From Candidatus Dojkabacteria bacterium (GTDB lineage Bacteria; Patescibacteriota; Dojkabacteria; B142; WJKM01), in contig WJKM01000006.1 in assembly GCA_014729085.1 (NCBI GenBank), forward strand, positions 88,016 through 152,015: 64,000 bases of DNA, written 5' to 3'. A program made the translations under genes and the position numbers. Within the stretch, counting starts at the first letter, position 1. Each line of letters starts with the position of its first letter. The notes below the pieces were generated by a model. That model made no database searches. It was not told the origin of the DNA and worked only from the letters and a program-made list of their open reading frames with translations. Shown here one piece after another: positions 8 through 45,521 of this stretch.

Positions 8-2476
8 GTGAGCCAGGAAGATTTGCTTGCCTACCAGCCAGTTATAGATACTCTTCGAGCTAATCCTGACCCTGACAAATATTCCAGTGATATTACGCGT
101 TGGACGGAACTTATGAAAGTTCCTGAGCAGGAATCGATACAGATTACAACTAGAGTTGAAAATGGAAGGTTAGAATTACAAGTACCAGATGGTACATGGG
201 TTGATATCATGGGGGGAGAAAATGATTTATTGCATAGACTTAATTTTCTTCAGGGGCAAGTTGATGCAGATACACCACTGGAGATTGTCGGAGGATGGAC
301 TCTTGACGTTCAAGAGTTGAGGGATTTAGTGCAAGAGGCGGCTCCACAAATTGGGGAGTATTATTTGCAAAATTTGAGAAATATTCAAGCTGAAAGGATG
401 AATATTGATTCACTCGAAGATGTAATTGAAGGTATTAGAGAACCATTAAGATCAAATCATGTTTTGGAGCAGGTCTTCACAGACATGGGAGTTATTGAAC
501 AACTTCAAGTTTTGGAAGCTACTCTAACTGAAAGACGAGACTTAGAGGAGGAGGGTGAAGAAGCAGTTGAAGAAGCAAGAAATGGGAACATAGAGAGATT
601 ATTAGCTTGGTTGAAACGACTGGCAGATGCTAATCTTTCTCGTGACGCAATTGTTGCACGGTTAAGAATGTATGGGATAGATATTAATTTGCTCCCATAT
701 GTTGGTAGGAGAAACTTTATAACTTTAGTTAGAACTATTGGAAACTTATTTCCTTCACTCAGAACTTTTACTGAATCATTGAGAGCAAGGGTAGGGAAAG
801 AAGTAGATGAGGAAATGCAGGAGCAAGATGAAGAAGATCAGGATCTTACGCAATCAAGAAGGTTAACAAGGGTAGATTTAGCTAGTTTAGTAAGAGGTGA
901 AGAGGTAGAGGGGGTGGATTTGTCTCCCCTAGAGCCTGAGGACCCTAATGCAGTAGCAGACTTTTTAAATATCATTAGAGATGAGGGCTTAGAACATTTT
1001 GTTCAGAGAAATCAAATAATTGAAATTCTAAGAAACGCAATTAACCAACGTATTGAACAAGACGATACTGATGAGACAACTAGAGAAGCCTTTGGAAGAA
1101 TTAGAGCAGAATATATTGCAGCCGGAGTCCCGCCTGAATACTTACCAGATTTACCAAGAGAGACTCCTGAAGAACGTGCTGAAAGAATGGAAGATATTGA
1201 GGGGGAGTTCGATGTGCTTCAACCACTTACAGTTTTGGCTTACATAAATGAAGAAATTGAGCAGAGGAATATCCAAGAGAGTACGCGTCAGAGAAGATAT
1301 GATCAAATTACTTTTGCTTTAAAAGAAGCTATCGCTCAAGGTAGGATTGAACTTGAGCCACCAAATGATAGAGTAGACTTGGCGCATGAATATTTGGATG
1401 CTGGAGTCCGTCCTACATCTGTTTATGCTGAAGTACTAATGGGAGAACATTATAAAGAAGCTCATAAGAAAGTAGAAGAATTTGCTCCTATAATGAGAGT
1501 ATTTTATGGTGAGGCTAGGCCTCCAGCAAATCCAGAAACTGTATGGAAAGAAAGGGTTTTACCAGAGTTAAGGAGCCAAAGGCCATTTGAGACTAGTCAG
1601 TATGAAGCATTAATACTAGTCCTTGCCCATGATATGTTCACCGAAGGTGTAAAGTGGTTAAGTTCTGTTGATAGGGTTATAGGAGCGGAAGGAGTAGATG
1701 GTGTTATGAAGGTAACTATGGAGATGATTGAAGAAAAATGTGATGTTTTTGAGGAAGGATCTCTATGGTGGAAGAAAGAGGGAATTAAACCTGTTAAGTA
1801 TGATGATATAAGAGGAGAATATGCAGGAAATCTATATGACGGGCCTCTTGCTGAATATTTAGGTCAATTAGATACGGTTGTAGTTGAAGGCATGATTGAT
1901 GATAATGCTGAAATGATAACATCATATATAAATTTACAAACTGAGTTTTGGATGGCACGACGAGAACAACAGAGAAAACTCGATAGACTCAACCGTCAGG
2001 AGAATTGGGATAGAATTAAATGGATTGCTGGTCTTGGAGGAGGGGCTGCGTTAATTGGGTTTGGAATCGCTGAATTATCCCTTGGTCCCGAGTTAATAGG
2101 TTTATTAGAATCAGCTGGAGAGATACCTTTGGTACCTAAATTAGGTGCACTTAGTCTTTCTACTATGGGTATAAGGTTACTTTGGGAGAGATTAGGAAAA
2201 CCGGAGGAAAGAGATAAAAAGGAGGATGAAAGGAATAAGGCTGAATTACAATTACGGCGAACTGAGAATAAATATGAAAGTGATTTAATGAGAAGGTTGC
2301 GTATGGTGAAAAGATCTGTTAGAAATTCGGTTTTAAACGTGTGTCAAACAGCTCCAGGCTCTAATGCTGCTACAGAGGCTGTTGTTTCTTATAGAAATTC
2401 AATGTCTCAATCTAATGGAGGTTGGCAGACACAGTTTAGAGGTGTTGGTGGACAGTCCTTTGCTTATGGGACATAA
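8..2476 (+). CDS. Large acidic coiled-coil hypothetical protein (822 aa) with a C-terminal hydrophobic/TM segment. The frame is open to the window edge, so it is probably truncated at the 5' end.
   Basis: Long ORF starting with GTG at 8 and no in-frame stop before position 1. Very D/E-rich. Gly-rich hydrophobic stretch 'GLGGGAALIGFGIAELSLGPELIGLL' near residue 680. No recognisable catalytic motif. Confidence 0.55.
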   Translation: MSQEDLLAYQPVIDTLRANPDPDKYSSDITRWTELMKVPEQESIQITTRVENGRLELQVPDGTWVDIMGGENDLLHRLNFLQGQVDADTPLEIVGGWTLDVQELRDLVQEAAPQIGEYYLQNLRNIQAERMNIDSLEDVIEGIREPLRSNHVLEQVFTDMGVIEQLQVLEATLTERRDLEEEGEEAVEEARNGNIERLLAWLKRLADANLSRDAIVARLRMYGIDINLLPYVGRRNFITLVRTIGNLFPSLRTFTESLRARVGKEVDEEMQEQDEEDQDLTQSRRLTRVDLASLVRGEEVEGVDLSPLEPEDPNAVADFLNIIRDEGLEHFVQRNQIIEILRNAINQRIEQDDTDETTREAFGRIRAEYIAAGVPPEYLPDLPRETPEERAERMEDIEGEFDVLQPLTVLAYINEEIEQRNIQESTRQRRYDQITFALKEAIAQGRIELEPPNDRVDLAHEYLDAGVRPTSVYAEVLMGEHYKEAHKKVEEFAPIMRVFYGEARPPANPETVWKERVLPELRSQRPFETSQYEALILVLAHDMFTEGVKWLSSVDRVIGAEGVDGVMKVTMEMIEEKCDVFEEGSLWWKKEGIKPVKYDDIRGEYAGNLYDGPLAEYLGQLDTVVVEGMIDDNAEMITSYINLQTEFWMARREQQRKLDRLNRQENWDRIKWIAGLGGGAALIGFGIAELSLGPELIGLLESAGEIPLVPKLGALSLSTMGIRLLWERLGKPEERDKKEDERNKAELQLRRTENKYESDLMRRLRMVKRSVRNSVLNVCQTAPGSNAATEAVVSYRNSMSQSNGGWQTQFRGVGGQSFAYGT

Positions 2477-25254: not shown

Positions 25255-28200
25255 ATGGGTAAAACAAAAAGCAATAATTCAGATGGAGAGCAGTATAATC
25301 ATGAAATGATCGAAGAAGCAATTCGAAAGGACTGGGCTTCAACGGGGCTTTATGATACCCCGGAAGGTGTCACGAAAGAGAATAAGTATTATATACTGCC
25401 TCAACTTCCTTATCCATCCGGAAGCGGTTTACATGTAGGACATGCAGAAGTTTATACGTCTTGTGATATTTTTGCAAGATTTATGCGTATGAAAGGAAAA
25501 AAGGTTTTACAGGTGATGGGTTGGGATGCCTTTGGACTCCCTGCCGAAAATTTTGCAATAAAAACGAATATACACCCAAGAATTAATACAGATAAAGCCA
25601 TCGATAATTTCCGTGAACAGATTAGTAAGATGGGGGTTTCTGTAGATTGGAATAGAGAAGTAGGGAGCCATAATCCAGGTTATTACAAATGGACGCAATG
25701 GTTTTTTAAACTTATGTATGACCAAGGACTTGCATATAGAAAGAACCAGGCGGTAAATTGGTGCGAGAGTTGTAAAACTGTACTTGCAAATGAACAAGTT
25801 GTAGAAGGTGCATGTGAAAGATGCGATACCGAAGTTATACAGAAAAATATGGAGCAGTGGTTTTTGGAAATAACTAAATATGCCGACAGACTTAAAGAAG
25901 ATTTGGATAAGATTGATTGGCCTGAGGAGACAGTAAAAAGACAAAGAGATTGGATAGGAAAGAGTAAAGGTGCAAACGTCAACTTTAAATGCAAAGTTCA
26001 GCATTTAGATTTGTTCTTTTCTACTAGTAACAAAGCAAAAGTCAAAAGGCTTAAAAAGATTCTAGATAAAACTGACTTAAAATACACTCTTTATACTGCA
26101 GATGATTTAGATATAGAATCCTTAAATATTAAAGAAGATGGAGATTTGGAAAGCAATGCCAAGAAAAAAGCATTAGCATATTTCGATAAAGTCAATATGC
26201 CTGTAGTTGCAGTAGACACAGGTTTATTTATAGAGGATGAGCATATAGATCCGGTTACAGTAAAAAGAAATGCTTTGGAGGGAAAGAAGGAAACAGAACT
26301 TTCACAAGAAGAAATTGGTAAGCTTATGAATTCTTATTATAAAAGCATTGCAGCTAAACATGGTGGAGAAGTAGAAGCCTATTTCAAGGATGTCTTTGCA
26401 TTTGTTTTTCCGGGTGGTAGAGTTCAAATAGCAGAGATAAGAAGGCCAATAGTCATTACTGATAAACCCAAGGGAGAACTTGATATTTATATGCCTATTA
26501 GAAATCTTTATAAAACCAAGGCAACTGGCAAATATGTTATTGAATATGGAGACAAAGGTTTCGACTTAGAGTTTGAGGAATACTTTAAAGTATTTAAGGA
26601 CGTATTTTCCTATAATTTGGAAGTATTTACGACACGGCCAGATACTTTGTACGGTGCTACTTTTATGGTAATTGCGCCGGAGCATGAATTAATTGAGAGG
26701 TTAGGCAGTACAATCCAAAATTATAAAGAGGTCAAAAAATATGTTGAACAGGCGAGATTAAAATCTGAGTTGGAAAGGCAGCAGCAAGAAAAAGAAAAGA
26801 CGGGGGTTAGAATTAGGGGAATTTATGCGATTAATCCAGTCACAAAAGAAAGAATACCAATCTTCGTAGCTGATTATGTACTTATTACTTATGGTACAGG
26901 TTCAATTATGGGAGTCCCAGCCCATGATGAAAGGGATTTCGAATTTGCATTAAAATATGACTTGTCCATAATTCCTGTAATTGATTTTGAAAAGGATGAA
27001 TATATTTGTTTTATAAAAAAAGAATGGAGGAAGAACTACCAAGATTTTTTAAAAGAAGCGGAAAAACTTGGAACAAAATTTTTAAAAAAAGGAAAGAATA
27101 AATCATTGTTATCTATTAAAAGTAATGATTTAAAAAATTTTATTAAATTAGTGAGAGATACAAGCCAAGATGGAAGTTGGTTAGATTTGGTTGGCAAGGA
27201 ATATATTGTAGTTTGGGAAGATGGTGAAGTTGAATATGTTAAAAGATTTATTAATGAAAAAGATGTTTTTGACAGACAAAAAGATACAGAGCCTGATGTT
27301 CGTGAGTTCAATAATGTTTGGGAAATGCTTTTTAATTCTACGGAATATAAGGATTATGTCTGTTATAGCGGACGCGGAAAAATTATTAATTCGGAAGATT
27401 GGAATGGATGGAAATACCCAGATGATTTTGATAAGGTACTTGATTATATAGAAGAGAAAGGTATAGGAAAAAGAAATACGATTTTTAAACTTCGAGATTG
27501 GTCTGTTTCAAGACAACGTTTTTGGGGAGCCCCTATTCCCATGCTAATAAAGGAATTAAAAAATGAAGATTCGGTAGAACTTAATGAAGTTTATAAAAGC
27601 AGTCCTGAAAAGGTAGTCCAAATGCATGCGTGGGATAGTGATCCTCAGGCTCACTTCCATTCATGGGTTGAAAAGAAGCTAGAGAAAAAAGGTATCAAAT
27701 GTGTAACACCTCAGCTTCCAAAACCGGTTAAACCAAATTTCAACGAATGGGTTCAAACGGGTGCAGATTTATTATATGAAAACTCAGAGAACTCAATTTT
27801 AGTTGGTAGAAGCTTAAGTGTTTGGAGTGCTTTGAAGGTTGCTGAAAAGAAAAAATTAAGAAAGTTAATTTTATTGTGTCCAACATTGAATATCGACAGT
27901 TGGTACAAACGTATTGAAGATGTTGTGGATAAAAAAGATGTTGCAGAATCAATTATTAATTTCGTAAAGAACAATAAAATAAATTTTGAAGCGGTTGAGA
28001 GAAATGTAGGAGAAGTTGTATTTTTCTTGTCTACGGATGATCCATATATTCCCCTAAGCGAAACAGAAGAATACATCCAAAAGATTTTTCCATGTGCTCG
28101 CATTCGAAGGTTCAGAGAATCGGGACACTTTGATGCTGAAAGTGGCTATAATACTTTCCCCGAGTTAATTGAGGAGATTGAGAAGAGTGTAAGATTAGAC

Positions 28201-29283
28201 TTAAAGAAGGTTAAACAGGAAGATTTGCCTGTCCTTCTACCTGATGATGTTGATTTCAAACCAACGGGCCAATCACCATTAACTTATTCGGATTCCTTCC
28301 AAGAAGATGTAGAAAAGATTTATGGAAAGGGATGGAGAAGAGAAGTTGATACTCTAGATACCTTTATGTGTTCGAGTTGGTATTATTATAGATATTTAGA
28401 TCCAAATAATGATGAAGCTTTTGCCTCAAAAGAATCACTTAAGAAATGGATGCCAGTTGATTTTTATATAGGTGGCCCCGAACATGTTAACGGACATTTG
28501 TTGTATTCACGATTTTTTACTAAGGTGCTTTATGATGCAGGATATATAGATTTTGATGAGCCTTTTAAATTTCATAGACATCAGGGGATGATTTTAGGTG
28601 AGGATAACAGAAAAATGAGCAAGCGATGGGGAAATGTGGTAAATCCAACAGATGTTGTTAATAAATATGGTGCAGACACCTTGAGAGTGTATGAAATGTT
28701 TATGGGACCTCTTGAACAGACTAAGGCTTGGAGTGATTCTGCGGTAAGAGGAGTGAGACGTTTTTTGCAGAGAGTTTACGATTATTCGCAAAAAGTTATT
28801 GATAATGAGTCAAACTCAAATGAAGAAGAAATTAAGGTCAGAATCGATCAGTTAATTAAAAAAATAAGTGAAGATACTAAAGAATTAAAGTTTAATACAG
28901 CAATAGCAGAGTTTATGAAATTCATGAATTTTGCAGAAGATAATAAGGTTGACATAGGAACCTGGAAGAAATTTATGCTCGTTCTTGCTCCTTATGCACC
29001 TTTTATTACAGAATACATTTGGAAGAAGTTGCTTGGTAATAAAGACTCTATACACTTAGAAGAATGGCCTCAATACGATGAGAAGCTCTTATCTTCCCAA
29101 AAGATTACAATTGCTGTACAGGTTATGGGTAAAACAAGAGGAGAAATATTAATTGATCCAGAAGAAAAGAAGGAGGACGCAGTTAATATTGCAGAAAACC
29201 ACGAAAACGTATCGAAGTATCTTAAGGACGGATATAAAAAAGCAATATATGTGAAAGGAAAAATTATTAATTTTGTTATCTAG
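25255..29283 (+). CDS. leuS: Leucyl-tRNA synthetase (1342 aa) carrying three large in-frame domain insertions.
   Basis: HIGH motif 'PYPSGSGLHVGHAEVYT'. KMSKS motif 'KMSKRWGN'. 'DWIGKSKGANVNF' and 'TTRPDTLYG' (CP1 editing) are separated by about 210 extra residues. 'GTGSIMGVPAHDERDFEFALKYDLSIIPVI' and 'RDWSVSRQRFWGAPIP' are both present. Confidence 0.92.
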   Translation: MGKTKSNNSDGEQYNHEMIEEAIRKDWASTGLYDTPEGVTKENKYYILPQLPYPSGSGLHVGHAEVYTSCDIFARFMRMKGKKVLQVMGWDAFGLPAENFAIKTNIHPRINTDKAIDNFREQISKMGVSVDWNREVGSHNPGYYKWTQWFFKLMYDQGLAYRKNQAVNWCESCKTVLANEQVVEGACERCDTEVIQKNMEQWFLEITKYADRLKEDLDKIDWPEETVKRQRDWIGKSKGANVNFKCKVQHLDLFFSTSNKAKVKRLKKILDKTDLKYTLYTADDLDIESLNIKEDGDLESNAKKKALAYFDKVNMPVVAVDTGLFIEDEHIDPVTVKRNALEGKKETELSQEEIGKLMNSYYKSIAAKHGGEVEAYFKDVFAFVFPGGRVQIAEIRRPIVITDKPKGELDIYMPIRNLYKTKATGKYVIEYGDKGFDLEFEEYFKVFKDVFSYNLEVFTTRPDTLYGATFMVIAPEHELIERLGSTIQNYKEVKKYVEQARLKSELERQQQEKEKTGVRIRGIYAINPVTKERIPIFVADYVLITYGTGSIMGVPAHDERDFEFALKYDLSIIPVIDFEKDEYICFIKKEWRKNYQDFLKEAEKLGTKFLKKGKNKSLLSIKSNDLKNFIKLVRDTSQDGSWLDLVGKEYIVVWEDGEVEYVKRFINEKDVFDRQKDTEPDVREFNNVWEMLFNSTEYKDYVCYSGRGKIINSEDWNGWKYPDDFDKVLDYIEEKGIGKRNTIFKLRDWSVSRQRFWGAPIPMLIKELKNEDSVELNEVYKSSPEKVVQMHAWDSDPQAHFHSWVEKKLEKKGIKCVTPQLPKPVKPNFNEWVQTGADLLYENSENSILVGRSLSVWSALKVAEKKKLRKLILLCPTLNIDSWYKRIEDVVDKKDVAESIINFVKNNKINFEAVERNVGEVVFFLSTDDPYIPLSETEEYIQKIFPCARIRRFRESGHFDAESGYNTFPELIEEIEKSVRLDLKKVKQEDLPVLLPDDVDFKPTGQSPLTYSDSFQEDVEKIYGKGWRREVDTLDTFMCSSWYYYRYLDPNNDEAFASKESLKKWMPVDFYIGGPEHVNGHLLYSRFFTKVLYDAGYIDFDEPFKFHRHQGMILGEDNRKMSKRWGNVVNPTDVVNKYGADTLRVYEMFMGPLEQTKAWSDSAVRGVRRFLQRVYDYSQKVIDNESNSNEEEIKVRIDQLIKKISEDTKELKFNTAIAEFMKFMNFAEDNKVDIGTWKKFMLVLAPYAPFITEYIWKKLLGNKDSIHLEEWPQYDEKLLSSQKITIAVQVMGKTRGEILIDPEEKKEDAVNIAENHENVSKYLKDGYKKAIYVKGKIINFVI

Positions 29284-38353: not shown

Positions 38354-39892
38354 TTATATATTTTCTTCTGTAAGTTTTAGATTATATAAATTGTTTTTAC
38401 CTTCAGATGTTTCTGTTTCTTTTGAATCCTGAATTAACATGAGTAAAGCTTTATTGTTTGATAGCATATAAAAACTTTCATCTACAATTCCATCATTAGT
38501 AAATAAATCAATTAGATTTTCTCCATTTCGATCCATAATTGTGATAGTTTTTTGGCCACTTTCGATACTTTTAGCTAAGAGAACGATGTGAGTTGAAATA
38601 GTGTTCCATTGAATTGAATGTATCTCAGGATTGTAATTTTCTAATATTAGATTGTGTTTAGAGATAATTTCATTTGTTACTTTATTTTCCTTGATTGTAT
38701 AAGAGAAGATTTTATTATCCTTCTGATAAAGTAGAGAGAGCCCATCTTTTGAAAAATCAAGAATATTAATATTTTGTCCTATTCTATCAATGAAGCTGTA
38801 TTGCGTATTTAGGTAATAATACTCATCTTTTGTTTTGTAAACAATATATTTCCCATTATTTCTATCTATATCTAGATATTCAATTTCCTTTGGCAGGCTT
38901 TGATTCTCAAGTGAAATTTTTTTCTTGGTTTCATCTTTGTAATAATACAAATTATTATCTTTATTTGATTTGAAAACTAAGGTATCTCCATTAATTGCGT
39001 ATATTGGTTCATGATCTGGATGGTAAGTGATTATGATATTTTTTTGATTACTTAGAACAAGCTCAGTTAGAAGTGTTTTGTCTTTTACTATAAGAGAAGT
39101 TGAACCTCTAAACCATTTGAACTGTTCTGGAGTAAAACCTAACATTCTTTCAATTGAAAGCAGATCTTCTGGTTTCGGATTTGGATTGGGGCTTTCTGTT
39201 TCAAAAATATAATGGGGGGTTTTATCAGATTTAAATAAGATTTTTTTATTATCAGGAGAGGGGAGAATTTTATATGAACCAGAATTAATAGCATCCTCTA
39301 TTTCTGGGATTATGTTAATAATCTTAACGGGTTGACTTTCAATCGTATTGAATATGGTAGAGATATCAGTTAATTGGAGTTGGAAAACACCATTTTCTAC
39401 ACCATTGGGAGATTTGCTGACAACGTAATAAACAAAATCGCCATATTCAGCAAAAAAAACTTTCTCTATATTTGTTGCTGGTAATCTTAGTTCTAAATTT
39501 GGATTTTCAGGAAATAGGAAAGGATTGATATCTGTAATCATCCCTCCTTCTATATTAAGGATGCTTTCCCATTCATTGTATCCCTCCATAGTTAAGTTCA
39601 ATTTATGTTCGCCTGGTTCGATGTTAGCTATTATATTTTCCTTTATTTCTTTAGGTTCACCATCTATTTTTGCTGTTAATTTCTCTTTATAGTCATCGTT
39701 ATTAATTCTGATAGACCCCGTTTGTATTATGATTGGTTCTCGAGTAGCGGAGGGGTTTTCATTATTTCCTAGAATACTGCTTAGGTTGATCTTCCTGCTG
39801 TTAGCGGATAACAAAGCCCACAAAAGCATTACGATAAATGCAATAGAGGAAGAAAATATCAATAATTTTTTTTGTGTATTAAATTTTTTCAT
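38354..39892 (-). CDS. Membrane-anchored PEGA-domain protein with a beta-propeller/TolB-like C-terminal region.
   Basis: N-terminal TM helix. PEGA-like 'IEPGEHKLNLTMEGYNEWESILNIEGGMITDI'. C-terminal region is repetitive and beta-rich. Confidence 0.55.
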   Translation of the reverse strand: MKKFNTQKKLLIFSSSIAFIVMLLWALLSANSRKINLSSILGNNENPSATREPIIIQTGSIRINNDDYKEKLTAKIDGEPKEIKENIIANIEPGEHKLNLTMEGYNEWESILNIEGGMITDINPFLFPENPNLELRLPATNIEKVFFAEYGDFVYYVVSKSPNGVENGVFQLQLTDISTIFNTIESQPVKIINIIPEIEDAINSGSYKILPSPDNKKILFKSDKTPHYIFETESPNPNPKPEDLLSIERMLGFTPEQFKWFRGSTSLIVKDKTLLTELVLSNQKNIIITYHPDHEPIYAINGDTLVFKSNKDNNLYYYKDETKKKISLENQSLPKEIEYLDIDRNNGKYIVYKTKDEYYYLNTQYSFIDRIGQNINILDFSKDGLSLLYQKDNKIFSYTIKENKVTNEIISKHNLILENYNPEIHSIQWNTISTHIVLLAKSIESGQKTITIMDRNGENLIDLFTNDGIVDESFYMLSNNKALLMLIQDSKETETSEGKNNLYNLKLTEENI

Positions 39893-43073: not shown

Positions 43074-45521
43074 TTATAAAGAGTAGTTTGCTTTTAGTAC
43101 TTTTTTTACATCTTTGATTGAAATAGGGGTGGAGGAGTCTGATGGTTTAGTAAATTCCATTAACTCATTTGGGTTTGCCTTCCCATTCCATAAATAGCCT
43201 AGGGATTTTGGGTTATTAACAATATATTGCCCAGTTTTTATGGCCCATTTCAAATAAAGATCTTTGGTAAAAGCTCCACTACTAGATGTATCTGATATAC
43301 CTCTCTTGAATCTTACTGTGTAGTTCCAAGCTTTGTTTTCGTCTTGGATGTATTTATATGCTTTGTTGTAAACAGCTTTAAAATCCGAAATCAAGGAGGT
43401 GTTCATTAATATAATAAGTAAGCTTGGGATTTTAAAGACTTTGTCTTTTTTTCTTGAGTGGCCTACTATTGTAGCTAGCCCTTCTTCTGTAATTATATAA
43501 CGTGGGGTACCTATTTTCCAAATTAATTCCTTCTTTTTCTTCCCATTATGCAGCCGTAATAAGTGTGTGAGTATTTCATGTCCTATTGCATTGTTTAGTT
43601 GATCTTCACTCCTACCACGGTTTTCTGGTAGTTTTATTCTTCCAGAACTTTTTCCTATAGACATTTTAGTTCTCTTATCGCTAAATTTAATAGGATAATC
43701 GAGTTTGTATTTGTCGAGAGCTTCCTGCATTCTTTTTCCTACTTCTCGGGCAGGGATCTCTGGATTCTTATCTATTGTTATTTTATGATTCTTAAGGATT
43801 TTTCTAGCAAGTCTCCTTATTTTACGGTTAGGTTGCCCAAAAAGTTCAATTGATCTTTGAGTAAAGGTATGTGGGTCATGTCCAATTGTTTCCATTAAAT
43901 ATACCATTTTTTTATATTCTTTAATTTTGTTTCTATAGATTCGTCCTATACTGTCAAATGGAGGATTTAAAAGTTCTAGTTTGTCAAGTATTTTATCTGG
44001 ATCAAATTTTAAAGGTTTGTATTCAAATTGTGGATTATAATCACAATTTTTCTTGAAAAACTTTTCTTTTTCTTCTTTAACATTCCGAGGTCTTAATGCA
44101 GGAATAATGCTTAATATTTTATTGAATTCTTCGAATGCTTCATCCAATTTTTTAATTTTAGTTGGTTTGAGCAATGCATAAATATTTTCTTTTAATTTAC
44201 TTTCCTCTGGACCCTCGATTTTTTTAACGTCAATTATGAAATTCCCTAGATCTTTTCTTCCTATTGACAGATTATAACCTTTGATTTGATCATTTATTAT
44301 CCTGCATTCACAATCAATTGTTTGATTGCCTAATTTTATTTTTATAAATACTATCTCGTACTCACCTTCCTCTACCTTTTCTTCCAGAATGCCAAGTTTC
44401 ATAGCTATTTGGGAACTAATGATCGAGGTTCTTCGGCTTGTATCAACCAAACTCATTGTTTGAACTTTTTTATCTTTGAAAATTATAGTCGCGGGCATTA
44501 TATTACTAATAATTTCTTTTCCAGAGATCCTTTCTATTTTTTCTTCAACTTCACCACCAAACAGATCTTTTCCTATTCTTATACCATGATCAGAATTTTT
44601 AACTTCCAGACCTTTAGCTTTATACAGTCTCCAAGCAAGGCCTCTTCTGTTTACTATTTGAATAGATAATCCGGGCCTTGCATTAAGTTCTACAATGACA
44701 GGTCCTTTTTCATTATCTATAAGGAAGTCAACAGCTCCAAAATTAAGTCCGGAAGCGTCAATAGCTTTAGAGGCGTATTTTAAGATTTCGTTCCAATGGG
44801 GAATTTCTAGTCCCTGGAATGGTAGTTTTGTTCCAGGTACAAATTCAATCGGATATCCTTTCCCCCCACTTCCTTTTCCATAAGTAGAAGTAGTAGTAAT
44901 GCCGCTTGCAAGGTCTATACCAGTACCAACAGCGCCTTTTATCATATTAGCCTTTCCTTTTGATTCTTTTGTAGGAAATCGAACATAGGCCATTATAGGA
45001 ATTTTATTGTATGTTACAACTCTTATATCGGGAGTTCCTTTATAAGTGTAGTTTTTTAGGTCATCATGTGTTCGTATTCTTTCCTCAAAAAAAGCTTGAT
45101 CCGGTTCGTTTCTAAGGGAATATTTTCCATCAAGTATTTCCAGGGCCATGCTTTTAATTTGATATGCAGATACTCTGCTACCATCGGATTTAATCCAATT
45201 TCCGTTTTTGTCTCTATTATAAAAAATTTCGATACCCGCTCCTTGTGCCCCCTGTACTGGTTTCATGACAAAACTTGCAGGTAATTTGTTCCAGTTGAAT
45301 GCTTCAAATTCTGAATAATCCTTTATGACTCCCAGTAATTCTGGTGAGGGAATATTTTCTGAAGCCAATATTTTTTTTGTAAGTAATTTATCGTCAGCAA
45401 TTTTCCTGCCTCTGGTATTACCTTCTTTTTGTATGAATAGTAGATTTCTCGCATTTTGTCCGAGAACCTTATTTCTATTCCTCAGTATTTGAAAGATTGT
45501 CATCTTCGTTTTTAGGATCAA
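43074..45521 (-). CDS. Tri-domain fusion: RimK-type ATP-grasp ligase, retropepsin-like (PF05618-type) protease, and MATCAP/DUF1704-like HExxH metallocarboxypeptidase.
   Basis: N-terminal domain: 'NARNLLFI...ADDKLLTKKIL', 'SFVMKPVQGAQGAGIEIF' and 'GAVDFLIDNEKGPVIVELNARPGLSIQ'. Middle domain: 'SLVDTSRRTSII...SIGRKDLGNFIIDV'. C-terminal domain: 'AIGHEILTHLL' (HExxH) and 'EEGLATIVGH' (QEGLA-type motif). Confidence 0.7.
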   Translation of the reverse strand: MILKTKMTIFQILRNRNKVLGQNARNLLFIQKEGNTRGRKIADDKLLTKKILASENIPSPELLGVIKDYSEFEAFNWNKLPASFVMKPVQGAQGAGIEIFYNRDKNGNWIKSDGSRVSAYQIKSMALEILDGKYSLRNEPDQAFFEERIRTHDDLKNYTYKGTPDIRVVTYNKIPIMAYVRFPTKESKGKANMIKGAVGTGIDLASGITTTSTYGKGSGGKGYPIEFVPGTKLPFQGLEIPHWNEILKYASKAIDASGLNFGAVDFLIDNEKGPVIVELNARPGLSIQIVNRRGLAWRLYKAKGLEVKNSDHGIRIGKDLFGGEVEEKIERISGKEIISNIMPATIIFKDKKVQTMSLVDTSRRTSIISSQIAMKLGILEEKVEEGEYEIVFIKIKLGNQTIDCECRIINDQIKGYNLSIGRKDLGNFIIDVKKIEGPEESKLKENIYALLKPTKIKKLDEAFEEFNKILSIIPALRPRNVKEEKEKFFKKNCDYNPQFEYKPLKFDPDKILDKLELLNPPFDSIGRIYRNKIKEYKKMVYLMETIGHDPHTFTQRSIELFGQPNRKIRRLARKILKNHKITIDKNPEIPAREVGKRMQEALDKYKLDYPIKFSDKRTKMSIGKSSGRIKLPENRGRSEDQLNNAIGHEILTHLLRLHNGKKKKELIWKIGTPRYIITEEGLATIVGHSRKKDKVFKIPSLLIILMNTSLISDFKAVYNKAYKYIQDENKAWNYTVRFKRGISDTSSSGAFTKDLYLKWAIKTGQYIVNNPKSLGYLWNGKANPNELMEFTKPSDSSTPISIKDVKKVLKANYSL

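What the first reader, a model, noticed from the sequence alone, without database searches (positions are those of the whole stretch)
27547..28215. LeuS insert 3 is an RBBP9/YdeN-type alpha/beta serine hydrolase with an apparently intact catalytic triad
The insert has the YdeN/RBBP9 serine-hydrolase layout.
- 'VVQMHAWDSDPQAHFHSWVEKKLEKKG...PQLPKP...EW' matches HG..s...HW..WL...l....v..P.lP.P....W.
- Nucleophile elbow 'ILVGRSLSV' (G-x-S-x-G/S).
- Acid 'FFLSTDDPYIP' (family SDNDP).
- Histidine 'ESGHFDAESGYNTFPEL' (family GHF...G...fPEL).

A hydrolase domain embedded in an aminoacyl-tRNA synthetase, in addition to the CP1 editing domain, could act as a built-in trans-editing/deacylase. Alternatively it could be a moonlighting esterase. 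I know of no described precedent.
Basis: partly seen in the sequence, partly recalled or inferred. Interest (0 to 1): 0.8.

Follow-up and report, generated by a model that had tools for sequence, protein, structure and literature searches.

The report
Serine hydrolase nested inside LeuRS
A leucyl-tRNA synthetase gene of a tiny-genome (Patescibacteria) bacterium really does carry a complete, apparently active RBBP9/YdeN-type serine hydrolase domain spliced into one of its surface loops; this turns out to be a widespread, repeatedly evolved but apparently undescribed feature of that bacterial group, and its purpose is still unknown.

Summary
Residues ~765-984 of the 1342-aa LeuRS (window 25255-29283, +) are a PF06821 domain (48.7 bits, cutoff 22). 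The AlphaFold model is confident (pLDDT 96.7) and its closest solved structures are YdeN and RBBP9. Ser853, Asp929 and His958 align with the RBBP9 triad.

The domain replaces the tip of the short hairpin that corresponds to the first Zn2 knuckle of bacterial LeuRS. It is not unique to this window:
- 67 of the 120 closest LeuRS relatives, all Patescibacteria where named, carry the same domain at the same site.
- 65 of 66 examined keep Ser, acid and His.
- The family also sits at two other LeuRS sites, and the embedded copies fall into several domain lineages, so capture was recurrent.
- JGI already labels some [quoted passage not shown]. I found no paper describing it.

CP1 editing motifs are intact with or without the insert. 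The domain is acidic. It tolerates three insertion sites. The same LeuRS loops host NUDIX, Ham1, methyltransferase, HAD and ASCH domains.

Best reading: an autonomous, active small-substrate hydrolase hosted by LeuRS. A leucine-supplying aminopeptidase or an aminoacyl-ester clean-up role remains possible.

The parts
25255..29283 (+). Host gene: bacterial-type leucyl-tRNA synthetase, 1342 aa, with three large insertions. HVGH (res 60), KMSKR (res 1120) and the CP1 editing motifs are intact.
   Evidence: ORF. TIGR00396 865 bits vs cutoff 548. Five collinear segments align to T. thermophilus LeuRS 1h3n, E 4e-179. Motif positions. Identical to an NCBI protein from Candidatus Dojkabacteria.
27547..28206 (+). 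Insert 3 (res 765-984): RBBP9/YdeN-type alpha/beta serine hydrolase domain with its N-terminal linker helix and C-terminal linker. It replaces the tip of the Zn2-knuckle-equivalent hairpin.
   Evidence: There are 53-58 aa between the SRQRxWGxPIP and DTxDTF anchors in insert-free relatives and 269 aa here. Hairpin comparison. AF2 pLDDT 96.7. Foldseek top hits are YdeN and RBBP9.
27622..28170 (+). Pfam PF06821 (Ser_hydrolase) match, residues 790-972.
   Evidence: 43.5 and 48.7 bits, gathering score 22.
27625..27627 (+). His791 of the 'HAW' motif (the family's HG motif after strand beta3, in the oxyanion-hole region).
   Evidence: Conserved in 65/66 site-C inserts. Codon checked.
27811..27813 (+). 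Ser853, predicted nucleophile in the elbow G-R-S-L-S.
   Evidence: Aligned to RBBP9 Ser75. Conserved 65/66 overall and 32/32 in the window's subgroup. Codon AGC.
28039..28041 (+). Asp929, predicted triad acid in STDDP.
   Evidence: Aligned to RBBP9 Asp138. Conserved 31/32 in the subgroup. An acidic residue is present in this turn in 66/66.
28126..28128 (+). His958, predicted triad base in SGHF.
   Evidence: Aligned to RBBP9 His165. Conserved 65/66.
27508..27543 (+). Upstream LeuRS anchor SRQRFWGAPIPM, immediately before the insert.
28222..28242 (+). Downstream LeuRS anchor DLPVLLP, where the core resumes after the insert.
26614..26985 (+). Canonical CP1 editing domain (res 454-577) with TTRPDT and HDERD intact. 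It coexists with the hydrolase.
   Evidence: PF13603 184.9 bits. Aligned to Tt 242-363. Motifs.
25993..26613 (+). Insert 1 (res 247-453): Ham1/ITPase-like domain at hotspot A. Context only, not part of the hydrolase.
   Evidence: PF01725 40.6 bits vs cutoff 22.5. No PDB sequence hit.
26986..27363 (+). Insert 2 (res 578-703): orphan domain at hotspot B. Context only.
   Evidence: No Pfam hit. No Nudix box. Belongs to a small family of site-B inserts. AF2 gave low confidence.

Best explanation
Insert 3 is a complete, catalytically competent RBBP9/YdeN-family (PF06821) alpha/beta serine hydrolase domain. It is nested in the tip of the hairpin that corresponds to the first Zn2 knuckle of a Patescibacteria (Dojkabacteria) LeuRS.

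Shown:
- The fold and family membership.
- Presence and strong conservation of Ser853, Asp929 and His958.
- The exact insertion point.
- Coexistence with intact synthetic and CP1 editing sites.
- The architecture is common in Patescibacteria LeuRS and arose at three different LeuRS sites.

Inferred: the domain works as an autonomous hydrolytic module. Ser853 attacks an acyl or aminoacyl carbonyl, activated by His958 and Asp929. The backbone amides after His791-Ala-Trp and after Ser853 form the oxyanion hole. The substrates are small and water-soluble, as for characterised family members: short-chain esters for ML-005, and single hydrophobic amino acids with a free alpha-amine on amide, ester or thioester bonds for RBBP9.

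LeuRS serves mainly as a permissive, essential and constitutively expressed host for this and other small 'house-cleaning' enzymes. The hydrolase is not a replacement for CP1 editing, and direct action on tRNA is not required.
For: Family and fold.

Triad selection: 65/66 site-C inserts keep Ser + acid + His, although the domain evolves faster than the core (32% vs 55% mean identity).

Autonomy and host permissiveness:
- The same family sits at three LeuRS sites, and the embedded copies fall into at least 4 domain lineages, two of them with free-standing sisters.
- The same loops carry NUDIX (29/40 with an intact Nudix box), Ham1, methyltransferase, HAD and ASCH domains.
- PF06821 is also fused to NusA, an M1 aminopeptidase, NUDIX (both orders), GNAT, IMPase and S9/S33 peptidase domains.
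- Insert-free sister LeuRS proteins are frequent, and the distribution on the core tree is patchy.

Not an editing substitute: CP1 motifs are intact regardless of the insert.

No RNA-binding signature: the embedded domains are acidic.

Family chemistry: the ML-005 esterase had its triad verified by mutagenesis (PMC6119806). [quoted passage not shown]

GC and GC3 of the insert equal those of the rest of the gene, so it is long-resident.
Against: - LeuRS is by far the commonest multi-domain host. It accounts for 18 of the 37 proteins of 260 aa or more among the 150 best representatives, no other aaRS appears, and the other hosts that were scanned had a variety of architectures.
- Site C always holds this family (67/67).
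- Recurrent capture at three sites, all around the editing/CP region, could equally mean selection for physical coupling to LeuRS chemistry.
- The linkers are ordered and conserved (pLDDT >90 from residue ~10 of the model; P784 in 30/32), which suggests a fixed rather than floppy attachment.
- No substrate has been tested, and the lid differs from RBBP9.
Confidence: 0.5

Rival explanations
1. Leucine-supply module. The domain is an RBBP9-like aminopeptidase or amino-acid esterase that releases N-terminal hydrophobic residues (Leu) from scavenged peptides right next to the LeuRS synthetic site. This would help an amino-acid-auxotrophic Patescibacterium charge its most-used amino acid.
For: RBBP9 removes single hydrophobic residues that have a free alpha-amine, and Leu/Ile adducts were trapped on S75Dap (PMC8866121). 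A PF06821 domain is nested in an M1 aminopeptidase, and another is fused to an S9/S33 peptidase domain. LeuRS is the only aaRS host seen and the dominant host overall.
Against: RBBP9's alpha-amine anchors are not demonstrably conserved: Ser76 aligns with Leu, Tyr99 with Thr, and the Glu aligned to Glu108 varies within the family. There is no evidence of Leu specificity. The three insertion sites argue against a precise channel. The co-resident NUDIX, Ham1 and HAD domains have nothing to do with amino-acid supply. The only characterised bacterial member is a short-chain esterase.
Confidence: 0.18
2. One reading: a second proofreading site. The hydrolase deacylates mischarged aminoacyl-tRNA(Leu), in cis or trans, or clears other aminoacyl by-products of LeuRS such as released aminoacyl esters or homocysteine thiolactone.
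For: The family chemistry fits aminoacyl esters with a free alpha-amine. RBBP9 is reported as a valacyclovir (L-valyl ester) activating enzyme (Shenoy 2020, cited in PMC7730578) and acts on amide, ester or thioester bonds. All three insertion sites lie in the connective-polypeptide/editing region of LeuRS. One free-standing relative has a YbaK-type tRNA_edit gene two genes away (a single anecdote).
Against: CP1 editing motifs are intact with or without the insert. The embedded domains are acidic, not basic. There is no homology to any known trans-editing family (AlaX, YbaK, Dtd) or to Pth. To my knowledge no alpha/beta hydrolase is known as an aa-tRNA deacylase. Most family members are free-standing in ordinary bacteria. 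One lineage (P0035) lost the triad but kept the domain.
Confidence: 0.12
3. Non-catalytic module. The domain is retained for structure, for example as a substitute for the lost Zn2 knuckle, or as a protein-protein interaction surface (RBBP9 was first described as a retinoblastoma-binding protein). On this reading the triad is a relic.
For: P0035 keeps the domain after losing Ser, His and the HG-motif His. The linkers are conserved and ordered. Patescibacteria LeuRS lacks the Zn2 cysteines at this hairpin.
Against: 65/66 keep Ser + acid + His despite only ~32% mean identity. In the window's subgroup the Ser and His are invariant and the Asp is present in 31/32. Insert-free relatives manage with a 9-residue hairpin.
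Confidence: 0.05

Closest known systems
Human RBBP9 (PDB 2QS9, 7OEX, 9FCR), PF06821
   Same: Same Pfam family and fold (Foldseek E ~4e-13, TM 0.82). The Ser-Asp-His triad aligns residue for residue, including identical STDDP and GHF motifs. Compact ~190-aa alpha/beta hydrolase.
   Different: - RBBP9 is a free-standing eukaryotic protein.
- Its elbow is GHSSG, against GRSLS here (Arg before the nucleophile, Ser at the last position).
- The window's domain has a longer helical lid of ~25 extra residues.
- RBBP9's alpha-amine anchors Ser76, Tyr99 and Glu108 are not clearly conserved.
- Only 23-24% identity.
Bacillus subtilis YdeN (PDB 1UXO) and the metagenomic esterase ML-005
   Same: YdeN is the best structural match (E 1.4e-13). 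It shares the HG-type motif, the xHSLG elbow and GHF. ML-005 shows that bacterial members are active short-chain esterases whose triad is needed for activity.
   Different: Both are free-standing (ML-005 is secreted). Identity is 19%. Neither has any link to translation.
Other Patescibacteria LeuRS with the same nested domain (e.g. P0002-P0036; JGI 'leucyl-tRNA synthetase/predicted alpha/beta hydrolase family esterase')
   Same: Same insertion point and the same domain subfamily (HAW...GRSL[S/G]...ST[ND]DPYIP...GHF). Identity is 40-55% over the insert and ~55-61% over the core.
   Different: The window's protein is the only one of the 120 closest relatives with all three hotspots filled: Ham1-like + orphan domain + hydrolase, 1342 aa against 980-1210 aa.
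Known cis and trans editing modules of aaRSs (CP1 of LeuRS/IleRS/ValRS, AlaX, YbaK/ProX, Dtd)
   Same: Like these, it would be a hydrolytic domain physically associated with an aaRS, and family members can hydrolyse aminoacyl esters.
   Different: There is no sequence or fold relationship, since none of those families is an alpha/beta hydrolase (established knowledge). CP1 is present and intact in the same protein. No evidence of tRNA binding.
aaRSs with appended or inserted accessory enzyme domains (e.g. NCBIfam NF040702 'isoleucine--tRNA ligase, N-acetyltransferase domain-containing')
   Same: A class Ia synthetase carrying an unrelated small-molecule enzyme domain. The existence of that model shows the phenomenon is recognised by annotators.
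   Different: Different host, different guest domain, and here the domain is nested rather than terminal. Up to three guests sit in one LeuRS.

Membership tests
PF06821 Ser_hydrolase (RBBP9/YdeN family) | Profile HMM score above Pfam's gathering threshold | tested here: met
   48.7 bits (insert alone) and 43.5 bits (whole protein) vs cutoff 22. hhalign to RBBP9 gives probability 99.3%.
PF06821 Ser_hydrolase (RBBP9/YdeN family) | Compact alpha/beta-hydrolase fold closest to YdeN and RBBP9 | tested here: met
   AF2 pLDDT 96.7, pTM 0.93. The top 7 Foldseek PDB hits are 1uxo, 2qs9, 7oex and 9fcr, E 1e-13 to 7e-12, TM(target) 0.78-0.82. The next class of hits is six orders of magnitude weaker.
PF06821 Ser_hydrolase (RBBP9/YdeN family) | Nucleophile elbow small-x-Ser-x-small at the position of RBBP9 Ser75 | tested here: met
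   G-R-S853-L-S aligned to G-H-S75-S-G. Ser conserved in 65/66. Variant: Arg instead of His before the Ser, and Ser instead of Gly at the end.
PF06821 Ser_hydrolase (RBBP9/YdeN family) | Triad acid and base at the positions of RBBP9 Asp138 and His165 | tested here: met
   STDD929P aligns with STDD138P, and GH958F with GH165F. His conserved in 65/66. An acid is present in this turn in 66/66.
PF06821 Ser_hydrolase (RBBP9/YdeN family) | Ser, Asp and His within hydrogen-bonding geometry in three dimensions | not testable with these tools
   The structure tool returns no coordinates. Only fold-level superposition scores are available.
PF06821 Ser_hydrolase (RBBP9/YdeN family) | Measured serine-hydrolase activity | not testable with these tools
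   Needs fluorophosphonate labelling or substrate assays.
RBBP9-type aminopeptidase (functional subclass) | Alpha-amine anchoring residues (RBBP9 Glu108, Ser76, Tyr99; PMC8866121) | tested here: inconclusive
   In the hhalign alignment Ser76 aligns with Leu854, Tyr99 with Thr877 and Glu108 with Glu898. The lid region differs in length, and Glu898 is not conserved within the subgroup.
Bacterial leucyl-tRNA synthetase (TIGR00396) | Equivalog HMM above cutoff, HIGH and KMSKS signatures, CP1 editing domain | tested here: met
   865 bits vs cutoff 548. HVGH at residue 60, KMSKR at 1120, TTRPDT at 459 and HDERD at 557. Collinear with 1h3n. The leucine-specific domain (Tt 580-637) is absent.
Known aa-tRNA trans-editing or hydrolase families (AlaX, YbaK/ProX PF04073, Dtd, Pth) | Sequence homology of the insert to any of these families | tested here: not met
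   A Pfam scan of the insert at E<=1 lists only alpha/beta-hydrolase families and one weak unrelated match, SNF2-related (E 0.092). NCBIfam finds nothing.
Intein or other self-removing insertion | Hint/splicing domain and Cys/Ser/Thr...His-Asn junction residues | tested here: not met
   No Hint or endonuclease family. The junctions are PIPML|IKEL and LKKVK|QEDLPV. The insert is a folded enzyme domain conserved in frame across relatives.

The most novel reading that the evidence does not exclude
Patescibacteria have repeatedly built an alpha/beta-hydrolase active site into LeuRS, at three different loops around the editing region and from several domain lineages, because it is functionally coupled to leucylation. 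It would act either as a second, CP1-independent hydrolytic checkpoint for aminoacyl esters or thioesters, including mischarged tRNALeu, or as an aminopeptidase that feeds leucine to the synthetase in amino-acid-auxotrophic cells. Together with the NUDIX and ITPase-like guests, this would make LeuRS a multi-enzyme 'quality-control and supply hub', an arrangement not described for any aminoacyl-tRNA synthetase.
Probability: 0.3. Interest if true: 0.85.

Novelty: new variant of a known kind. Interest (0 to 1): 0.6.

Why it matters
Aminoacyl-tRNA synthetases are among the most conserved enzymes, and their accessory domains usually serve tRNA binding or editing.

Here, a large part of a major bacterial radiation carries one to three unrelated, apparently active small-molecule enzymes nested inside LeuRS. 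These are an RBBP9-like serine hydrolase, NUDIX and an ITPase-like domain, among others.

If the hydrolase is coupled to leucylation, it would be a new kind of proofreading or substrate-supply device. It would also give a physiological role to the poorly understood PF06821 family, which includes the human cancer-linked RBBP9.

If it is merely hosted, it is still a clear natural example of recurrent domain nesting in an essential enzyme of reduced genomes. It would be useful for understanding how tiny genomes pack functions, and which LeuRS loops tolerate 200-residue insertions.

It also matters for annotation. Some of these LeuRS genes are labelled only 'alpha/beta fold hydrolase' or 'class I tRNA ligase family protein'.

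Tried and rejected
1. The word-indexed homolog search with the insert alone found nothing. The exhaustive HMMER search and the full-length search were needed.
2. hmmalign in global mode misplaced the inserts. I replaced it with local domain segments.
3. The first NJ attempt with Biopython's BLOSUM distance timed out and was redone with a numpy distance. Both trees are rough NJ trees without support values, so I use them only for the statement 'patchy / several lineages'.
The subgroup alignment gave only 10 loci because a single narrow pattern was used. Taxonomic breadth is therefore illustrated, not quantified.
5. Compensation hypothesis (hydrolase replaces a dead CP1): rejected, because the motifs are intact.
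6. RNA-binding electrostatics: no signal.
7. Intein, mobile element or recent transfer: rejected. There is no splicing domain, and the composition equals that of the host gene.
8. Gene neighbourhoods of free-standing relatives show no conserved partner. The NUDIX neighbours in L001 and a YbaK-like gene in L016 are single cases.
9. Insert 2: not a degenerate NUDIX by sequence. The AF2 model was too poor (pLDDT 55.6) to search with.
10. Insert 1 has no PDB sequence match.
11. The last homolog search, with the subgroup profile, returned only free-standing proteins and added little.
12. Literature: seven searches for LeuRS or aaRS plus hydrolase, NUDIX, CPR or PF06821 found no description. One of those was rejected for a syntax error and not repeated. 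Subscription-only papers are not covered.

Full report
**1. The observation**

It lies inside one uninterrupted ORF, 25255-29283 on the + strand, 1342 aa.

That ORF is a bacterial-type leucyl-tRNA synthetase. TIGR00396 scores 865 bits against a cutoff of 548. The ORF aligns collinearly in five blocks with T. thermophilus LeuRS 1h3n, E 4e-179. The blocks leave three unmatched stretches:
- residues ~247-453,
- residues ~578-703,
- residues ~765-984.

The leucine-specific domain (Tt 580-637) has no counterpart.

The third stretch matches Pfam PF06821 (Ser_hydrolase). It scores 43.5 bits in the whole protein and 48.7 bits alone, against a gathering score of 22. phmmer against all PDB sequences finds only RBBP9 (E 4e-11) and YdeN (E 6e-9). 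Profile-profile comparison with RBBP9 gives 99.3% probability.

An AlphaFold2 model built on 44 homologous inserts is very confident, with mean pLDDT 96.7 and pTM 0.93. It has the alternating strand/helix pattern of an alpha/beta hydrolase. Foldseek against the PDB ranks YdeN (1uxo) and RBBP9 (2qs9, 7oex, 9fcr) first, with E 1e-13 to 7e-12 and TM 0.78-0.82 normalised to the target. The next class of hits, feruloyl and other esterases, is six orders of magnitude weaker.

The catalytic positions align residue for residue:

| Window | RBBP9 |
|---|---|
| G-R-S853-L-S | G-H-S75-S-G |
| S-T-D-D929-P | S-T-D-D138-P |
| G-H958-F | G-H165-F |

Codons were checked. The one thing I could not do is measure the triad geometry, because no coordinates are returned.

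**2. Where exactly it sits**

Insert-free relatives have 53-58 residues between the two LeuRS anchors SRQRxWGxPIP and DTxDTF. Insert-bearing relatives have 235-287, and the window has 269.

In the insert-free proteins the site is a short hairpin, PIPMV-YDPEGNLQP-VDEKDLPV. In the window about 215 residues replace the hairpin tip: PIPML-[IKELKNED ... SVRLDLKKV]-KQEDLPV.

In T. thermophilus and in some relatives retrieved here (P0131, P0132) this hairpin carries the first CxxC of a zinc knuckle. It corresponds to the 'Zn2' module, which published LeuRS domain maps list among the insertions that split the aminoacylation domain (PMC9424281). P0132 has the hydrolase right after an intact CxxC.

GC and GC3 of the insert (0.35/0.30) equal those of the rest of the gene. 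No splicing or endonuclease domain is present. It is therefore a long-resident part of the mature protein, not an intein or a recent transfer.

**3. It is not a one-off**

The window's protein is identical to an NCBI entry from Candidatus Dojkabacteria.

Among the 120 best LeuRS relatives, 67 carry a ~165-230-residue insert at this same site. Named sources are Dojka-, Roizman-, Magasanik- and Nomurabacteria and 'Patescibacteria group'. Species-genome loci add Paceibacter and Saccharibacteria-labelled MAGs. JGI already names some of these proteins 'leucyl-tRNA synthetase/predicted alpha/beta hydrolase family esterase'. NCBI calls two of them merely 'alpha/beta fold hydrolase'.

Of 66 aligned inserts, 65 keep the Ser, an acidic residue in the post-beta7 turn, and the His. 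Only P0035 has lost Ser, His and the HG-motif His together.

There are two main sequence types:
- The window's type has HAW...GRSL[S/G]...ST[ND]DPYIP...GHF. Among its 32 members the Ser and His are invariant and the Asp is present in 31. Arg852, Lys870 and Glu974 are also invariant.
- The other type is canonical: HG...[GA]HSLGG...HF.

The domain evolves faster than the LeuRS core, at 32% against 55% mean pairwise identity. Retention of the triad therefore reflects selection on catalysis.

**4. Recurrent capture and a landing-pad pattern**

An exhaustive HMMER search of 1.84 billion representatives found 972 relatives of the insert, 152 of them below 1e-10. Most are free-standing proteins of ~175-200 aa.

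Of the 37 hits of 260 aa or more among the best 150, 18 are LeuRS. None is another synthetase.

In those LeuRS proteins the hydrolase sits at three different places in core coordinates:
- ~240: P0131, with two tandem copies, and P0141.
- ~372-387: P0164, P0167 and P0177.
- ~445: the window and most others.

A rough NJ tree of the hydrolase domains puts the embedded copies in at least four clusters. Two of them have free-standing sisters: P0128/P0130 for the window's type, and P0155 for P0131. On the LeuRS core tree, insert-bearing and insert-free enzymes are interleaved. So there have been several gains and/or losses.

The same three loops are hotspots for other guest domains:
- Site B mostly holds a ~140-aa NUDIX domain (29 of 40 with an intact Nudix box). 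It also holds a methyltransferase (P0026), a HAD domain (P0102), or the window's orphan domain.
- Site A holds Ham1-like or ASCH domains.

The window's enzyme is the only one of the 120 with all three sites occupied.

Outside LeuRS, PF06821 domains are nested in an M1 aminopeptidase. They are also fused to NusA, NUDIX (both orders), GNAT, inositol monophosphatase and an S9/S33 peptidase domain.

**5. Tests of the 'built-in deacylase' idea**

- If the hydrolase compensated for a decayed CP1 editing site, CP1 motifs should be degenerate in insert-bearing enzymes. They are not. TTRPDT, HDxRD, HVGH and KMSKR are equally intact in both classes and in the window.
- If it docked tRNA, one might expect a basic domain. 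The embedded domains are acidic, with mean net charge -7 to -9 and pI ~5.3-5.6. They are no more basic than free-standing relatives.
- The insert has no similarity to known trans-editing families.
- Three different insertion sites argue against a requirement for one precise geometry.

None of this excludes the idea. All three sites surround the editing/connective region. The family's chemistry also fits aminoacyl esters. [quoted passage not shown] RBBP9 is also cited as a valacyclovir-activating enzyme.

RBBP9's alpha-amine anchors are not clearly conserved, though. Ser76 aligns with Leu and Tyr99 with Thr. The Glu aligned to Glu108 lies in a lid that differs in length and is variable.

The only characterised bacterial family member, ML-005, is a short-chain esterase whose triad was confirmed by mutagenesis (PMC6119806).

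**6. Most likely mechanism**

Shown: an intact PF06821 hydrolase domain under selection for its triad, nested at a defined hairpin of a LeuRS whose synthetic and editing sites are intact.

Inferred: it is an autonomous serine hydrolase with Ser853 as nucleophile, His958 as base and Asp929 as acid. It acts on small soluble acyl or aminoacyl substrates, as its free-standing relatives do. LeuRS serves as a permissive, essential, constitutively expressed carrier for it and for other house-cleaning enzymes in these reduced genomes. I give this 0.5.

The rivals are:
- a leucine-supplying aminopeptidase (0.18);
- aminoacyl-ester or mischarged-tRNA clean-up (0.12);
- a non-catalytic module (0.05).

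The main argument against pure 'hitch-hiking' is the specificity and recurrence of the LeuRS/PF06821 pairing. Site C always holds this family, LeuRS is the dominant host, and no other aaRS appears as a host.

**7. Comparison with what is known, and novelty**

The domain is a member of PF06821, and all testable defining features are met. The host is a bona fide bacterial LeuRS. What is unusual is the nested architecture.

It is visible in databases, and some pipelines already label it. Seven searches of the held literature found no description of an alpha/beta hydrolase, NUDIX or ITPase domain inside an aminoacyl-tRNA synthetase of Patescibacteria. One of the seven was rejected for a syntax error and was not repeated. 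Subscription-only papers were not searchable.

I therefore class it as a new variant of a known kind: an aaRS with an accessory catalytic domain. It is of moderate to high interest. The phenomenon is real, widespread, recurrent and experimentally tractable, but the exciting functional reading is unproven.

Noticed in passing
window 25993-26613 (+), LeuRS residues 247-453: Insert 1 is a Ham1/ITPase-like domain (PF01725 40.6 bits vs cutoff 22.5; weak hits to NCBIfam XTP/dITP diphosphatase models) at the junction before CP1. phmmer finds no PDB relative, and I did not check its catalytic residues. The N-terminal motif reads STSNKAKVKR, so the usual Glu may be missing. Only P0012 and P0034 among the 120 relatives share it.
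   Followed up: partly
window 26986-27363 (+), LeuRS residues 578-703: Insert 2 is an orphan domain with no Pfam hit and no Nudix box. It is markedly AT-richer than the rest of the gene (GC 0.27, GC3 0.20). It belongs to a small family of site-B inserts also found in P0090, P0101, P0054, P0063 and P0123. The AF2 model on 5 sequences was poor (pLDDT 55.6; only residues ~11-70 reach 72-88, with a beta-alpha-beta-beta-alpha pattern), so the fold is unresolved.
   Followed up: partly
window ~28600-28626 (+), around KMSKR (residue 1120): The leucine-specific domain that precedes KMSKS in E. coli and T. thermophilus LeuRS (Tt 580-637) is absent. The alignment jumps from Tt 580 to Tt 637 across only ~4 residues. 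Judging by length (~800 aa), the insert-free Patescibacteria relatives lack it too.
   Followed up: no
relatives P0013, P0016, P0017, P0020-P0024, P0028, P0031, P0041-P0045 and others (site B): 29 of 40 site-B inserts in LeuRS relatives are NUDIX domains with an intact Nudix box, and 27 of the 120 LeuRS proteins carry both a site-B insert (mostly NUDIX) and the hydrolase. Small free-standing NUDIX-PF06821 fusions exist in both domain orders (P0174, P0221). This hints at a functional link between these two enzymes that is independent of LeuRS.
   Followed up: partly
P0035 (1199 aa LeuRS relative): This is the only site-C insert that has lost the nucleophile Ser (elbow SSYLS), the triad His (replaced by Cys) and the HG-motif His (CAW) together, while keeping the domain. 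It may be a natural pseudo-enzyme and so a useful control lineage.
   Followed up: no
P0186, P0218: A PF06821 domain is nested between the catalytic and ERAP1_C domains of an M1 aminopeptidase (P0186), and another is fused to the C-terminus of NusA (P0218). The family seems unusually prone to nesting or fusion with housekeeping proteins.
   Followed up: partly
P0042, P0045, P0001: Annotation problem. Full-length LeuRS genes with these inserts are named 'alpha/beta fold hydrolase' or only 'class I tRNA ligase family protein' or 'hypothetical protein' in NCBI records. This could make LeuRS appear to be missing from those genomes.
   Followed up: no
L003 (CAZKQL010000002.1): A contig labelled 'uncultured Gammaproteobacteria bacterium' encodes a Patescibacteria-type LeuRS with the GRS-type hydrolase insert (43% identity to the window's insert). 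The bin may be mislabelled or contaminated.
   Followed up: no
L016 3252-3749 (-) and 5001-5540 (+): One free-standing PF06821 gene (P0284) lies two genes from a YbaK/ProX-type tRNA_edit (PF04073) gene. This is a single case, and it is not seen at the other free-standing loci examined (L001, L012-L015).
   Followed up: partly
window 43074-45521 (-): An 815-aa ORF combines an N-terminal sugar-transfer-associated ATP-grasp domain (PF14397, E 7e-55) with a C-terminal MATCAP-like domain (PF08014, microtubule-associated tyrosine carboxypeptidase family, E 1e-35). This pairs an amino-acid ligase with a carboxypeptidase in one protein.
   Followed up: no
window 8-2476 (+) and 38354-39892 (-): Two large ORFs (822 aa and 512 aa) have no Pfam match at E<=1e-5.
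   Followed up: no
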